A stretch of 64,000 nucleotides of DNA from Vicinamibacterales bacterium (GCA_040881785.1 JBBECO010000221.1:1865-65864), one strand, 5' to 3'; counted from the stretch's first letter, positions 32,313-34,919 are shown. The notes: a model not told the origin generated them from the letters alone. Translations and numbers: made by a program.

Positions 32313-33730
32313 CGCCGCGCCTGCGCGGAAACGGACGCGCGGCACAGATCGAACCTGTGGCGCCGAGCGCGAGGGTCGTCCGCCGTGTGGAGCACTTGCG
32401 GGAGCAGATTCGTCACCACGACTACCGGTACTACGTACTCGACCGGCCGACCATCAGCGATGCGGCGTACGACGCGCTGATGCGCGAGCTGCAGACACTG
32501 GAAGCGCACGATCCAGAGCTGGTGAGACCGGACTCTCCAACCCAGCGCGTCGGCGGCGAGGTACGTGAGGGCTTCCGCACGGTGGCACATCGTGCGCCGC
32601 TCCTCAGCCTCGAATCGACCACCGATCCAGAGGCAGTCCGCCTGTTCGACGGTCGCATCAGAGCAGCTCTCGGTCCGTCGGTGCGGTACGTCCTCGAGCC
32701 GAAGTTCGACGGACTGTCCATTGAAGTGGTGTACGAGCGCGGGCAACTGGCCTCCGCGTCGACGCGCGGCGATGGCCAGCGGGGCGAGGACGTCACGGCG
32801 AACGTTCGGACGATTCGCGCGGTGCCGCTGCGCCTGCGAAAGGGCCCCGCCTCGATACCCAGACTGCTGGCGGTGCGTGGCGAGGTGCTCATGCGCCGCT
32901 CCGATTTTGCGACGCTCAATGAGCGATTGCGCCGTGCCGGCGAGCCACGCTTTGCCAACCCCCGCAATGCCGCTGCCGGCTCCGTCCGGCAGTTGGATTC
33001 TCGCATCACGGCACGGCGAGCGCTGAACGTGTACTTCTACGACGTGCTCGCGATTGAAGGGGGCGGCAAGGCTGAGACGGCCTCCACGCTTGCCGAATGG
33101 ATGCGCGCCTGGGGCCTGCGAATGAGCCCGCACCAGCGACTCGGATCGAGCACGGCTGACATCCTCGCCTACCGCCAGCGGATGGCGATGGCCCGCGATT
33201 CGCTCGACGTGGAGATCGACGGAATTGTGGCGAAGGTCGACAGCCTGCCTGCGCGCAATCGCCTGGGGAGCACGGCGAAGCATCCGCGCTGGGCGATCGG
33301 GGTCAAGTTCGAGGCGCGCTCGGCGACGACCCGGCTCGAACGGATCGAAGTGCAGGTCGGGCGCACGGGCGTCCTGACGCCCGTCGCGGTCTTGCGCCCG
33401 GTGCCGATTGGCGGCGTCACGGTCACTCGCGCCACGCTCCACAACTGGGGCGAGCTCGCGCGCAAACGTATTCGCGCGGGCGACGCGGTGGAAGTGATCA
33501 GGGCTGGCGTTTCCTATCCTGCCGCCGGCACTCGCGGTGCGCTCGTGCGTTGCTTCAGCAGCGGCGCCAATGCATCCGCGAGATCAGGTCTCCCGATCTC
33601 CTGCAGCTCGTACCGCGCCCGCACGACCGGCTTGTCGATCTTCACGAGCCGGCTCAGGTCGATCGGTGTGCCAACGATGACGAGGTCGCACGGAACCTGC
33701 GCAATCGTCGCTTCGAGGTCGCGAATCTGA
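32309..33730 (+). CDS. ligA: NAD-dependent DNA ligase LigA, truncated after the OB fold (homology ends near 33507)
   Basis: [40 protein letters not shown] (KxDG), [19 protein letters not shown] and [16 protein letters not shown] are present. Zn-finger, HhH and BRCT regions are absent. The last about 74 codons of the ORF are antisense to the converging gene. Confidence 0.8.
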
Positions 33731-34518
33731 GCGTCCCCGTACCCCATGGCCGGCAGCAGCCGTCCAATCGCGGGGTACGTGTTATACGTGGCGGCAATGC
33801 TGGCAACGGCGAACGGACGCGGGTCGATGATCTCTGCGGCCCCGAACTTCCGGGCCAGGACTGTCCCGGCGCCGAACCGCATCTCGCCGTGCGTCAGGGT
33901 TGGCCCGTCCTCGACCACGAGCACGCGTCGACCGGTAATGCGCTCCGCGCCATCGGCCATCACGGGCGAAGCGGCCTCCACCATGCGCGCGTCGGGGTTC
34001 GCTGCGCGCACGTGATCCCGAAGCTCCTCGGTGGCGGCGAGATCCGCCGTGTCCACCTTGTTGATGACGACCACATCGGCCATGCGGAGGTTGGCCTCGC
34101 CAGGGTAGTAGGTCAGCTCGTTTCCCAACCGCAGCGGATCGGCCACGACGACGTGGAGCGACGGCCGGTAGAACGGCAGGTCGTTGTTGCCGCCGTCCCA
34201 CAGAATGATGTCGGCGTCATGCGACGCCCTTTCGAGGATCTCGGCGTAGTCGACGCCCGCGTAGACGACCGTGCCGTTTTCGAGATGTGGTTCGTACTCC
34301 TCCATTTCCTCGATCGTGCAATGCTGCGTCTGCAAATCCGCCACGCTGGCAAAACGCTGCACCCGCTGCGCGGAGAGGTCGCCATACGGCATCGGATGTC
34401 GAACGACGACGACATGGAGGCCGGCACTTCGCTAGCGCGTGTCGTCGCGGTAGACCACATTGAAATTGTGAAAGTCACGCCCGGCGGCGCCGACTATCAG
34501 GGTCCGAATGCGCTCCAT
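33514..34518 (-). pseudogene. cyclic-2,3-diphosphoglycerate-synthetase-like P-loop GTPase with an internal deletion and in-frame TAG
   Basis: MERIRTLIVGAAGRDFHNFNVVYRDDTR, then TAG (34432-34434), then RSAGLHVVVVRHPMPYGDLSAQRVQRFA...EEYEPH...ILWDGGNNDLPF. The N-terminal motif is joined to the C-terminal two-thirds and about 120-130 codons are missing. Confidence 0.65.
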
Positions 34519-34519
34519 G

Positions 34520-34705
34520 ACCGTAGATACGATCGACGTCCGTCACCATCGCGAGGACGTGAACCCTCAGGTGGATGGCAAGTAACGCAGAGGCGAGATC
34601 CTTGTCGATGACGGCTTCAGTCCCCTCGAGCCGGCCTCCTCGCTGAACAACCGGTACACCTCCGCCCCCGAGTGCGATCACGAGCATGCCGGCATCGAAG
34701 AGCCA
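34520..34705 (-). pseudogene. carbamate kinase internal fragment (about 62 aa)
   Basis: LFDAGMLVIALGGGGVPVVQRGGRLEGTEAVIDKDLASALLAIHLRVHVLAMVTDVDRIYG is a carbamate-kinase core motif with no N- or C-terminus. Confidence 0.65.
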
Positions 34706-34919
34706 CCCGCGTCCGGAGCGACGGCTTCTCGAAGATCGTGGCGAGCGTCTTGCCGGCAAGCGCCTGCGCGTAACGTGCGGGCTGCTCCCGGACGTCAGCC
34801 GCGAGGGCAAGCAGCGCAAGTAACTCGTCGCGCGTCAGGTCGCGAATCGAGAGCAGATCCAGACCTCGTAGGGGTGCGCAGGTGTCCTGCGGCGATGTCT
34901 TCACCAGCGGCGCTGCCAT
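34704..34919 (-). pseudogene. ornithine carbamoyltransferase N-terminal fragment (about 70 aa)
   Basis: LRGLDLLSIRDLTRDELLALLALAADVRE...LAGKTLATIFEKPSLRTRV is the carbamoyl-phosphate-binding STRTR region. Homology ends there. Confidence 0.7.

What the first reader, a model, noticed from the sequence alone, without database searches (positions are those of the whole stretch)
33514..34919. Collapsed carbamoyltransferase / carbamate kinase / GTPase operon: three fragments fused head-to-tail in original order
Seen on the minus strand, reading 5' to 3':
- An OTCase N-terminus of about 70 aa ends right after the STRTR-type motif (FEKPSLRTRV).
- It abuts about 62 aa from the middle of a carbamate kinase (VIALGGGGVPV...AVIDKDLASALLA...TDVDRIYG).
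- That abuts a cyclic-2,3-DPG-synthetase-like GTPase. Its first 28 codons (MERIRTLIVGAAGRDFHNFNVVYRDDTR) are joined through an in-frame TAG (34432-34434) to ...AGLHVVVVRHPMPYGDL and an otherwise intact 292-aa C-terminal part.

Established: these three gene types co-occur in carbamoyl-phosphate/arginine-deiminase-like clusters.

Inference: an ancestral operon lost most of its length through several internal deletions while keeping gene order and strand.
Basis: partly seen in the sequence, partly recalled or inferred. Interest (0 to 1): 0.6.

Follow-up and report, generated by a model that had tools for sequence, protein, structure and literature searches.

The report
Deletion-shredded carbamoyl-phosphate operon remnant
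The stretch is the dead remnant of a three-gene operon (ornithine carbamoyltransferase, carbamate kinase, GTPase) cut down by three internal deletions, and it is the densest part of a run of at least twelve large, recent deletions that also truncated the DNA ligase gene next door.

Summary
On the minus strand, 34919-33514 holds OTCase codons 1-72, carbamate kinase codons ~180-238, GTPase codons 1-28, a TAG, then GTPase codons 146-450.

Intact operons in close relatives (94-97% DNA identity: L001, L083, L102) place the junctions at 34703/4, 34522-4 and 34425-34. The missing pieces are 1,300, 287 and 341 bp. Junctions are blunt or share up to 3 nt, and the TAG arises from junction filler. Every junction shifts the frame. 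The OTCase C-domain, most of the kinase and the GTPase Walker A motif are gone, so the remnant cannot work.

This is not a misassembly. Independent k=31 assemblies of two sequencing runs (SRR27977658, SRR27977661) reproduce the junctions.

Window 26.7-35.4 kb carries at least 12 deletions and no insertions, about 12 of 20.5 kb lost. The losses include the 3' 43% of ligA, dodecin, prs, a ribonucleotide reductase gene and most of lonC.

The remnants have no small indels or internal stops, and synonymous changes outnumber non-synonymous ones, so the losses are recent. Related lineages carry different deletions at the same locus.

This is an ordinary kind of feature (deletional pseudogenes) in an unusually dense, large-deletion-only form. 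One event versus several is unresolved.

The parts
34704..34919 (-). OTCase remnant, codons 1-72 of 321, ending just after the SLRTR carbamoyl-phosphate motif. The open frame runs on out of frame to a TGA at 34617 (100-aa ORF).
   Evidence: Pfam and NCBIfam. 93% aa identity to L102 OTC residues 1-76. blastn window 34704-34988 = L001 1-285.
34703..34704 (-). Junction J1 (D9). 1,300 bp are missing relative to L001 and 1,306 bp relative to L102 (OTC codon 73 to CK codon ~179). Blunt, no microhomology.
34525..34703 (-). Carbamate kinase remnant, about codons 180-238 of 331, in a different frame from the OTC piece.
   Evidence: NCBIfam arcC positions 176-237/309. blastn window 34522-34703 = L001 1586-1767, 94%.
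34522..34524 (-). Junction J2 (D8). 287 bp are missing (CK 3' third and the intergenic spacer). 3-nt microhomology, ACG.
34435..34518 (-). GTPase remnant, codons 1-28.
   Evidence: blastn window 34425-34524 = L001 2055-2153.
34425..34434 (-). Junction J3 (D7). 341 bp are missing (GTPase codons ~30-145, including Walker A at T130-S135). 1-3 nt of filler creates the in-frame TAG at 34434-34432.
   Evidence: Invariant G131/G133/K134/S135 in family alignment A1.
33514..34431 (-). GTPase remnant, codons 146-450 plus the stop. It is 97% identical to L001 with no gaps. The 292-aa ORF starts at ATG 34392.
33505..33507 (.). Junction J4 (D6). 1,189 bp are missing (ligA codons ~401-703, the dodecin gene and the spacer). 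3-nt microhomology (TGG on the + strand).
   Evidence: Spanned by Logan contig L095 at 100% identity.
32309..33507 (+). ligA remnant, codons 1-400 of 703 (Ia, adenylation and most of the OB domain). The Zn finger, HhH and BRCT domains are absent. The frame reads on through antisense GTPase sequence to a stop at 33730.
   Evidence: Pfam and NCBIfam profile positions 2-375/664. P0121 is the same 473-aa product in Logan. Intact 703-aa LigA in L096 and L102.
30396..30492 (+). Junction D5a/b (1,364 + 77 bp missing: prs and the first 177 codons of an HPF/cold-shock-domain gene, with an 18-nt island retained), followed by the last 31 codons of that gene.
29411..29717 (-). Archease remnant with a 131-bp internal deletion (D4) at 29648/29649. 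This is the only junction not spanned by a Logan contig.
27383..27946 (-). Remnant of an 848-aa AMP-binding/PP-binding/acyltransferase gene (codons 1-142). Deletions D3a (1,281 bp) and D3b (947 bp) flank a 51-nt island at 27473-27523. D2 lies at 27333-27385.
   Evidence: Spanned by Logan contig L106 at 100%.
26931..26934 (.). Junction D1. 404 bp are missing (the 5' part of a metallo-beta-lactamase-fold gene). 4-nt microhomology, GCAC.
35359..35679 (-). LonC-like protease remnant (first ~111 of 834 codons), ending at junction D10 (35395/35396). 4,285 bp are missing relative to L096: the rest of lonC, a ribonucleotide reductase gene and small ORFs.
   Evidence: Spanned by Logan contigs L093 and L094.
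34926..35372 (-). Intact terB-like gene (148 aa) directly upstream of the operon, 6 nt before the OTC start. It is the probable source of read-through transcription into the remnants.

Best explanation
**What it is.** The stretch is a non-functional remnant of a terB-linked operon for ornithine carbamoyltransferase, carbamate kinase and a COG2403-type P-loop GTPase. It sits in a Vicinamibacterales (Acidobacteriota) metagenome-assembled genome.

**What is shown.**
- Three deletions of about 1,300, 287 and 341 bp removed 58% of the operon (3,344 bp down to 1,406 bp).
- Each junction changes the reading frame, and the third creates the TAG.
- The OTCase ornithine-binding domain, two thirds of the kinase and the GTPase Walker A loop are gone. 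No piece can be a working enzyme.
- Junctions are blunt or share up to 4 nt, sometimes with 1-3 nt of filler. No repeats or insertion sequences flank them.

**What is inferred about mechanism.** The junction anatomy points to illegitimate end-joining or polymerase template-switching, not homologous or transposon-mediated deletion.

**The wider context (shown).** The operon is the densest part of a run of at least 12 deletions and no insertions in window 26.7-35.4 kb. Together they removed about 12 of about 20.5 kb. The losses include the 3' 43% of ligA, dodecin, prs, most of an HPF/CSD gene, a ribonucleotide reductase gene, most of lonC, part of archease and most of an acyl-CoA-synthetase/acyltransferase gene.

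**The most likely story (inferred).** This block of stress and repair genes became dispensable in this lineage and was eroded by a short, recent episode of large deletions. Sister lineages carry their own, different deletions in the same block. Whether it was one compound event or several is not resolved.
For: **Identity of the pieces.**

**Intact reference operons.** L001, L083, L102/L103. The L102 OTC passes the NCBIfam cut-offs (400.5 vs 306 bits) and the L102 CK passes NF009007 (312 vs 266).

**Junction mapping and microhomology.**

**The reads contain the junctions.** Logan k=31 contigs of SRR27977658 match the window:
- L106 = window 26301-29648, 100%.
- L095 = window 29662-34195, 100%.
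- L093 = window 34174-36711, one mismatch.
- L094, from a second run (SRR27977661), spans J1-J3 and D10. It carries three private SNPs, two of them inside the remnants.

**The losses are recent.**
- Retained coding blocks align to relatives without gaps or internal stops.
- Window-specific codon changes are mostly synonymous even in the remnants, given as non-synonymous:synonymous: GTPase 3:6, LigA 20:35, OTC 1:2, CK 0:3. Intact PolX gives 17:27 and RtcB 11:50.

**Other lineages have independent deletions at the same locus.**
- L088 fuses OTC codon ~109 to GTPase codon ~104.
- L096/L097 lack 2,873 bp of the operon and 1,085 bp of ftsH.
- L002-type contigs, seen in at least 7 JGI samples, join the GTPase end to polX codon 60.
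- L102 has a 106-bp gap in prs.

**No mobile element or repeat involvement.** No repeats or IS at the junctions. The missing parts are not elsewhere in the window.

**The cluster is local.** Window 16.8-20.1 kb is colinear with a 95-99% identical relative.
Against: - The haplotype lacks a complete ligA, prs and a ribonucleotide reductase gene. These are normally indispensable. Viability therefore needs paralogues elsewhere in the genome, which I could not check.
- The indel spectrum is unlike ordinary pseudogene erosion. There are only deletions of 77 to 4,285 bp, with no small indels or insertions in about 3.9 kb of remnant coding sequence. In curated Burkholderia pseudogenes, 396 deletions averaged about 19 nt and were accompanied by 300 insertions (PMC6054270).
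- Junction D4 is not spanned by any Logan contig. L106 stops exactly at 29648 and L095 starts at 29662.
- The two supporting runs have neighbouring accession numbers, so they probably come from one project.
- A 26-mer across J1 is absent from JGI metagenome contigs. No independent study shows this exact haplotype.
Confidence: 0.77

Rival explanations
1. One compound event. This is nested within the best explanation rather than opposed to it. A single replication or repair accident produced all or most of the 12 junctions at once and became fixed. It would involve either serial forward template switches or many breaks rejoined in order, like microhomology-mediated break-induced replication.
For: - Twelve colinear, same-orientation junctions lie within about 20 kb of ancestral sequence, with 0-4 nt microhomology.
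- Very small islands are retained between deletions, in original order: 18, 51, 86 and 95 nt.
- The remnants have no small indels, stops or excess non-synonymous changes.
- The spectrum is unlike gradual pseudogene decay.
- The second run carries the same full set for J1-J3 and D10.
- No intermediate haplotype was found.
Against: - There are no duplications, inversions or templated insertions from elsewhere, which usually accompany template-switch events.
- Neutral divergence of about 0.5% would be enough time for serial deletions and would be invisible here.
- D4 may be polymorphic in the sample, because the Logan contigs break exactly there. That would mean at least one deletion is separate.
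- Sister lineages show single, separate deletions at this locus.
- The excess of short islands over a random-break expectation is weak (4 of 11 under 100 nt against about 1.3 expected; my own estimate).
Confidence: 0.3
2. A decaying spare copy. The block is one of two copies in the same genome, arising from a segmental duplication or a recombined-in homologous segment. The intact twin supplies ligA, prs, nrd and the rest, and this copy is free to erode.
For: - It would explain the loss of housekeeping-type genes in this lineage, and the different losses elsewhere: ftsH in L096 and prs in L102.
- A second, more diverged collapsed relic of an archease/acyltransferase locus lies at window 650-961. 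Paralogous copies of parts of this block therefore exist.
Against: - The 90%-identity protein clusters of intact LigA (P0122) and intact GTPase (P0001) contain no member from SRR27977658 or SRR27977661, although Logan proteins of that run are in the collection.
- Substitutions on the window branch show purifying selection comparable to intact neighbours. Any redundancy would have to be very recent.
Confidence: 0.15
3. An artefact of library preparation or assembly. Candidates are amplification chimeras that came to dominate coverage, or wrong joins in the graph. The real genome would then be intact.
For: - The haplotype looks unviable if single-copy.
- The remnants look pristine.
- Only large deletions are present.
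- The supporting runs are probably from one study.
- J1 is absent from JGI contigs.
- The same MAG contig has a clustered three-mismatch patch that creates a stop codon not present in the Logan contig, so its consensus is not flawless.
Against: - De Bruijn graph assemblers cannot join across 0-4 nt of overlap. The junction k-mers must be in the reads.
- A second assembler gives identical sequence through 11 of 12 junctions, without branching.
- A second run has the same junctions plus private SNPs.
- Random amplification chimeras are mostly inversions and would not recur across libraries (own knowledge).
- Comparable large deletions occur in relatives from unrelated projects and assemblers: JGI, ENA/MEGAHIT and Logan.
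Confidence: 0.07
4. The short ORFs are functional novelties. For example, the 292-aa GTPase C-terminal protein or the truncated ligase might be retained for a new role.
For: - The 292-aa ORF is open and 97% identical to intact relatives, with 3 non-synonymous to 6 synonymous changes.
- Truncated LigA-like proteins of 364-535 aa also occur on long contigs of other taxa.
Against: - Walker A is deleted.
- No Shine-Dalgarno-like or promoter-like signal precedes ATG 34392.
- Close relatives keep 450-aa genes. The 292-aa proteins in JGI are contig-edge calls on intact genes.
- All junctions are out of frame.
- The synonymous excess is explained by how recent the deletions are.
Confidence: 0.03

Closest known systems
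Deletional erosion of bacterial pseudogenes (deletional bias: Mira, Ochman & Moran 2001 and Kuo & Ochman 2009-2010, from my own knowledge; Danneels et al. 2018, PMC6054270)
   Same: Inactivated genes are shortened by deletions. The fragments stay in original order and orientation. Junctions carry little or no homology, and Danneels et al. attribute the pattern to alternative end-joining.
   Different: Here every event is large (77-4,285 bp), with no small indels or insertions. Twelve events fall within about 20 kb. The remnants are otherwise unmutated, and genes that are usually indispensable are hit.
Carbamoyl-phosphate-utilising clusters of the arginine deiminase type (arcB OTCase + arcC carbamate kinase), here with a COG2403 GTPase
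   Same: Intact relatives encode OTCase, carbamate kinase and the GTPase as one co-directional cluster. The kinase is next to this GTPase in 31 of 80 genomes from many phyla.
   Different: No arginine deiminase gene is adjacent in L102. In the window the cluster is a wreck and cannot function.
Cyclic 2,3-diphosphoglycerate synthetase (PDB 8ORK, 8ORU, 9SXB; PMC10690619)
   Same: It is the nearest solved relative of the GTPase family. A family profile hits 9SXB with E=1.4e-9. NCBI names some members this way.
   Different: The match covers only about 108 residues. A single-sequence search finds nothing, and no NCBIfam model matches. The bacterial family is very conserved (73% mean column identity), it associates with carbamate kinase, and its function is unknown.
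Complex clustered rearrangements by serial template switching (FoSTeS/MMBIR, chromoanasynthesis) described in eukaryotes (own knowledge)
   Same: Many breakpoints are clustered in a small region. Microhomology is 0-4 nt, and very short segments are retained between breakpoints.
   Different: Only losses are seen. There are no duplications, triplications, inversions or insertions templated from elsewhere. Simultaneity is unproven.
NAD-dependent DNA ligase LigA
   Same: The neighbouring ORF has the Ia, adenylation and OB domains and scores above the NCBIfam cut-off (476.7 vs 369 bits).
   Different: It stops at residue ~400 of 703 and lacks the Zn finger, HhH and BRCT domains that intact relatives have.

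Membership tests
Ornithine carbamoyltransferase (TIGR00658 / NF001986) | Full two-domain protein (OTCace_N + OTCace, about 300-320 aa) reaching the curated score | tested here: not met
   The window piece scores 38-57 bits against cut-offs of 281-421 and covers only positions 2-57/148 of the N domain. The intact L102 relative scores 400.5 against 306.
Ornithine carbamoyltransferase (TIGR00658 / NF001986) | Carbamoyl-phosphate motif S-x-R-T-R | tested here: met
   SLRTR is present at the very end of the remnant.
Ornithine carbamoyltransferase (TIGR00658 / NF001986) | C-domain ornithine-binding motifs (DxxxSMG, HCLP) | tested here: not met
   They are present in L102 OTC (DTWISMG, HCLPA; sequence) but lie in the deleted 1,300 bp.
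Carbamate kinase (arcC, TIGR00746 / NF009007) | Full amino-acid-kinase fold of about 310 aa reaching the curated score | tested here: not met
   The window piece scores 53-67 bits against cut-offs of 266-416 and covers positions 176-237/309 only. L102 CK scores 312 against 266 for NF009007.
COG2403-type P-loop GTPase (cDPGS-like) | Walker A / G1 loop (GxGKS) | tested here: not met
   The invariant T130-G131-x-G133-K134-S135 lies in the 341 bp lost at J3.
COG2403-type P-loop GTPase (cDPGS-like) | NKxD specificity motif and the C-terminal domain | tested here: met
   INKVD and the whole C-terminal 305 residues are retained at 96-97% identity.
Cyclic 2,3-diphosphoglycerate synthetase proper | Full-length homology to the characterised archaeal enzyme | tested here: inconclusive
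   The profile hit to 9SXB (E=1.4e-9) covers only about 108 residues, and phmmer finds nothing.
NAD-dependent DNA ligase LigA | Complete domain set Ia-NTase-OB-Zn-HhH-BRCT | tested here: not met
   Only Nlig-Ia, DNA_ligase_aden and DNA_ligase_OB (positions 1-63/79) are present, covering profile positions 2-375/664. Relatives have HHH_2 and BRCT.
Bacterial pseudogene / deletional remnant | Close intact orthologue exists, and the local copy lacks more than 20% of its length or is frame-disrupted | tested here: met
Bacterial pseudogene / deletional remnant | The lesion is present in the DNA and not produced by one assembler | tested here: met
   Logan contigs from two runs span 11 of 12 junctions. 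D4 is not spanned. Raw reads were not inspected.
Bacterial pseudogene / deletional remnant | Relaxed selection after inactivation (non-synonymous excess, small indels, stops) | tested here: not met
   Synonymous changes outnumber non-synonymous ones, and the remnants have no indels or stops. I read this as recency, not as function.
End-joining type deletion scar (NHEJ / alternative end-joining) | Junctions with 0-4 nt microhomology, occasional 1-3 nt filler, and no flanking repeats | tested here: met
End-joining type deletion scar (NHEJ / alternative end-joining) | The genome encodes the machinery (Ku/LigD or an alternative end-joining polymerase and ligase) | not testable with these tools
   No Ku or LigD domain appeared among the window ORFs scanned. 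The rest of the genome was not available.
Single-event template-switch rearrangement (MMBIR/FoSTeS-like) | Clustered breakpoints with microhomology on one haplotype | tested here: met
   Contig-level phasing comes from L093, L095 and L106.
Single-event template-switch rearrangement (MMBIR/FoSTeS-like) | Interspersed copy gains, inversions or templated insertions | tested here: not met
   All blocks are colinear and there are no insertions. The apparent fillers are retained in-order islands.
Single-event template-switch rearrangement (MMBIR/FoSTeS-like) | All junctions arose simultaneously | not testable with these tools
   This needs population haplotypes or read-level data.

The most novel reading that the evidence does not exclude
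A single compound replication or repair accident in a free-living soil or sediment bacterium shredded a block of about 20 kb of stress and repair genes into about 12 colinear pieces in one step. The resulting haplotype survived and spread in a natural population, even though it lacks complete ligA, prs and nrd copies at this locus. That would be a bacterial counterpart of the clustered, one-off rearrangements known from eukaryotic genomes. It would also imply that these housekeeping-looking genes are a dispensable second set.
Probability: 0.2. Interest if true: 0.65.

Novelty: new member of a known kind. Interest (0 to 1): 0.4.

Why it matters
For annotation, nothing in 33514-34919 should be called a gene, and the ligA next to it is truncated.

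For biology, the locus is a clean natural record of large-deletion mutagenesis in an uncultured Acidobacteriota lineage. It offers about a dozen precisely mapped junctions with almost no homology, no accompanying point decay, and independent deletions of the same block in sister lineages.

If read-level data confirm single-copy status, two conclusions follow:
- A whole block of repair and stress genes (PolX-LigA, RtcB-archease, HPF, LonC, RNR, OTC-CK-GTPase) is dispensable in this clade.
- Pseudogene removal can proceed by bursts of kilobase deletions rather than by slow small-indel erosion.

If the data refute it, the case is a useful warning about MAG contigs.

Tried and rejected
- **Exact look-up of the 292-aa ORF.** It is not on record, because Logan contigs break at 34174-34195 inside it.
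- **26-mer across J1 in JGI metagenome contigs.** No hits.
- **292-aa 'predicted GTPase' proteins in JGI (P0246, P0250).** They looked like the same truncated allele. They turned out to be contig-edge calls on intact L002-type genes.
- **My interim idea that the whole window is full of truncated genes.** This was partly wrong. RtcA is a normal 345 aa. The glucan synthase 'truncation' is a single TAG from a three-mismatch patch that is absent in the Logan contig. Window 16.8-20.1 kb is colinear with a close relative.
- **A blastn hint that an OTCase C-terminal part sat at 25.4 kb (L092).** That region is an HSP20 gene.
- **Repeat- or IS-mediated deletion.** No meaningful repeats flank the junctions.
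- **Missing segments moved elsewhere in the window.** They are not found. The only exception is an older paralogous relic at 650-961.
- **Junction 'fillers' as insertions templated from elsewhere.** They are in-order islands of the deleted intervals.
- **Promoter and terminator scan of 33300-35800.** Nothing found.
- **Rfam scan.** Only one tRNA, at 43 kb.
- **Literature search for the run accession.** Nothing found.
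Full report
**1.

On the minus strand the three fragments lie head to tail in three different frames.
- 34919-34704 encodes the first 72 residues of an ornithine carbamoyltransferase. It ends at FEKPSLRTRV. Pfam OTCace_N covers positions 2-57/148 with E=6e-13, and NCBIfam OTCase models reach E=1e-15.
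- 34703-34525 encodes about 60 residues from the middle of a carbamate kinase (arcC model positions 176-237/309, E=4e-18).
- 34518-34435 encodes the first 28 residues of a GTPase, followed by TAG (34434-34432) and 305 further codons to the stop at 33514. The ATG-started ORF is 292 aa.
- Homologues of the GTPase are about 450 aa.

**2. Intact operons in close relatives map the junctions to the base**

A JGI metagenome contig, L001, is 94-97% identical in DNA. It carries terB-like end -> OTC -> CK (331 aa) -> GTPase (450 aa), then a convergent dodecin gene and the end of ligA. L083 and the 74-kb contig L102, with its JGI counterpart L103, show the same order. The L102 proteins pass the NCBIfam cut-offs for ornithine carbamoyltransferase and for a carbamate kinase subfamily.

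The window aligns to L001 as four colinear blocks:

| Window | L001 | What lies between this block and the next |
|---|---|---|
| 34988-34704 | 1-285 | J1: 1,300 bp missing, blunt |
| 34703-34522 | 1586-1767 | J2: 287 bp missing, ACG shared |
| 34524-34425 | 2055-2153 | J3: 341 bp missing, 1-3 nt of filler that itself forms the TAG |
| 34432-33505 | 2495-3422 | (end of the alignment to L001) |

The operon shrank from 3,344 to 1,406 bp. The deleted parts include:
- the OTCase C-domain with its DxxxSMG and HCLP motifs;
- the first 179 and last ~93 residues of the kinase;
- GTPase residues ~30-145, which hold the invariant Walker A loop (T130-S135 in alignment A1).

All junctions are out of frame. 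No promoter-like or terminator-like signal lies in the region. The pieces are therefore dead remnants. They are probably still transcribed by read-through from the intact terB-like gene 6 nt upstream; that last point is an inference.

**3. It is not an assembly error of one program**

The window comes from a 73,662-bp contig of an NCBI MAG named Vicinamibacterales bacterium (proteins MEX1129426, MEX1129439, MEX1129444 and MEX1129446). Independent Logan assemblies (k=31, one per sequencing run) match it:
- L106 = window 26301-29648 at 100%.
- L095 = window 29662-34195 at 100%.
- L093 = window 34174-36711 with one mismatch.
- L094 comes from a second run, SRR27977661, and covers 34174-36414. It has the same junctions and three private SNPs, two of them inside the remnants.

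With 0-4 nt of overlap at the junctions, a de Bruijn graph can cross them only if the reads contain them. One junction is not crossed by a Logan contig: the 131-bp deletion in archease at 29648/9. L106 ends exactly there.

**4. The operon is only the densest part of a larger deletion cluster**

The convergent ligA (32309 onward) stops being ligase at 33507, residue ~400 of 703. It then reads 73 codons of antisense GTPase sequence. Its Zn-finger, HhH and BRCT domains and the dodecin gene are missing: 1,189 bp, junction J4, 3-nt microhomology.

Alignment to L102 and to a second relative shows at least 12 deletions and no insertion between 26.7 and 35.4 kb. The second relative is L096 (matched by L097) at 90-98% identity.

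| Deletion | Size (bp) | Position in window | What was lost |
|---|---|---|---|
| D1 | 404 | 26931-4 | 5' part of a metallo-beta-lactamase-fold gene |
| D2 | ~150 | 27333-85 | mostly intergenic |
| D3a, D3b | 1,281 + 947 | around a 51-nt island at 27473-27523 | most of an 848-aa AMP-binding/acyltransferase gene |
| D4 | 131 | 29648/9 | part of archease |
| D5a, D5b | 1,364 + 77 | around an 18-nt island, 30396-30413 | prs and 177 of 208 codons of an HPF/CSD gene |
| D6 (J4) | 1,189 | 33505-7 | ligA 3' part and dodecin |
| D7 (J3) | 341 | 34425-34 | GTPase codons ~30-145 |
| D8 (J2) | 287 | 34522-4 | CK 3' third and spacer |
| D9 (J1) | 1,300 | 34703/4 | OTC codon 73 to CK codon ~179 |
| D10 | 4,285 | 35395/6 | most of a LonC-like protease gene and a ribonucleotide reductase gene |

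About 12 of 20.5 kb are gone. RtcB, PolX, the terB-like gene and FtsH remain intact. No repeats or mobile elements flank the junctions. The missing pieces are not elsewhere in the window. Outside the cluster, window 16.8-20.1 kb is colinear with a 95-99% identical relative.

**5. The losses are recent**
- Retained coding blocks align to relatives without gaps or internal stops.
- Codon changes specific to the window lineage are mostly synonymous even in the remnants, given as non-synonymous:synonymous: GTPase 3:6, LigA 20:35, OTC 1:2, CK 0:3. The intact PolX gives 17:27 and RtcB 11:50. The genes were under purifying selection for nearly all of the branch.
- The spectrum differs from ordinary pseudogene erosion. 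In curated Burkholderia pseudogenes, 396 deletions averaged about 19 nt and came with 300 insertions (PMC6054270). Their method excluded multi-gene deletions. Here only deletions of 77 bp or more are seen.

**6. Sister lineages have their own deletions at this locus**
- L088 fuses OTC residue ~109 to GTPase residue ~104.
- L096/L097 lack 2,873 bp of the operon and 1,085 bp of ftsH.
- L002-type contigs, seen in at least seven JGI samples, join the end of an intact GTPase gene to polX codon 60. They have lost polX, ligA and dodecin. They also keep only a 54-aa terB fragment.
- L102 has a 106-bp gap in prs.

The block therefore tolerates loss across the clade. Its content points to a secondary stress and repair set: Usp, HSP20, BON, HPF/CSD, RtcA/B-archease, PolX-LigA, LonC, RNR, OTC-CK. 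That is an inference.

**7. Explanation and rivals**

I consider a real, recent, end-joining or template-switch type deletion cluster in a dispensable block the best explanation (about 0.77).
- Within it, a single compound event (about 0.3) cannot be separated from a short series of events. The tiny retained islands and the pristine remnants favour a burst. The possible polymorphism at D4, the absence of duplications or inversions, and the single deletions in sister lineages favour a series.
- A decaying spare copy with an intact twin in the same genome (about 0.15) would explain the loss of ligA, prs and nrd. However, no intact LigA or GTPase at 90% identity or more from these runs is in the protein clusters.
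- An artefact (about 0.07) is made unlikely by the two-run, two-assembler agreement.
- Functional neo-ORFs (about 0.03) are contradicted by the lost Walker A and the out-of-frame junctions.

**8. Comparison with what is known**

This is deletional pseudogene decay, a known phenomenon, so it is a new member of a known kind. Its unusual features are the density, the exclusively large sizes and the kinds of genes hit.

The GTPase belongs to a highly conserved family of unknown function that spans many phyla. It is only distantly related to archaeal cyclic 2,3-diphosphoglycerate synthetase: a family profile hits PDB 9SXB with E=1.4e-9, and a single-sequence search finds nothing (PMC10690619). A carbamate kinase lies next to it in 31 of 80 genomes.

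Noticed in passing
window 650-961 (- strand): A second, more diverged collapsed relic. Archease residues 1-31 (58% to L102) are followed directly by the last ~67 residues of the 848-aa AMP-binding/acyltransferase protein (67-77%, with a frameshift near 722). It looks like an archease-RtcB-acyltransferase locus with about 4 kb missing.
   Followed up: partly
window 16851-16876: Three clustered mismatches (16851, 16865, 16875) separate the window from the Logan contig of the same run. One creates a TAG that cuts the 2,828-aa cyclic-glucan-synthase-like ORF (9521-18007) to 2,451 aa. This is probably a consensus or strain-mixing glitch in the MAG.
   Followed up: yes
window 33505-33510, and L002 at 1848-1851: The GTPase-side breakpoint of J4 (GCCA, 9-12 nt after the stop codon) coincides within 3 nt with the breakpoint of the independent ~4.9-kb deletion in L002-type contigs. 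This may be a hotspot at the intergenic hairpin region, or a result of selection to keep the GTPase ORF.
   Followed up: partly
window 26058-26592 (- strand): A BON-domain gene is split into two overlapping ORFs in different frames (profile positions 2-34 and 26-69). This could be a further small lesion. No close relative was available to check it.
   Followed up: no
window 21750-22782 (- strand): An 83-aa ORF matches only WbqC positions 1-30/218. A 189-221-aa ORF matches only the last ~45 positions of Glycos_transf_1. These may be further gene remnants.
   Followed up: no
window 30056-30127; L107 at 1261-1329: A ~72-nt intergenic element recurs at 79% identity, on the opposite strand, in a relative. 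There it lies at a different locus, between the glucan synthase and acyl-CoA ligase genes. It may be a small repeated element.
   Followed up: no
window 29648-29662: Logan contigs L106 and L095 stop at 29648 and start at 29662, exactly at the archease deletion junction. The 131-bp deletion may be polymorphic in the sample, or it may be supported only by the MAG assembler.
   Followed up: partly
window ~5000-38000: The stretch is unusually rich in stress and dormancy-type genes: three Usp genes, HSP20, BON proteins, PEBP, DUF5335, RtcA, RtcB-archease, an HPF/CSD remnant, PolX, LonC, FtsH and TerB-like.
   Followed up: no
locus L102 at 6680-7512; locus L096 at 17433-17957: Even the 'intact' relatives carry lesions in housekeeping-type genes of this block. 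L102/L103 have a 106-bp gap that splits prs. L096/L097 have ftsH reduced to its 174-aa peptidase domain.
   Followed up: partly
one search hit list (P0170, P0202, P0209, P0221): LigA-like proteins of 364-535 aa with only the Ia, adenylation and OB domains occur on long contigs (35-474 kb) of other taxa. Truncated ligA copies may be more widespread.
   Followed up: no
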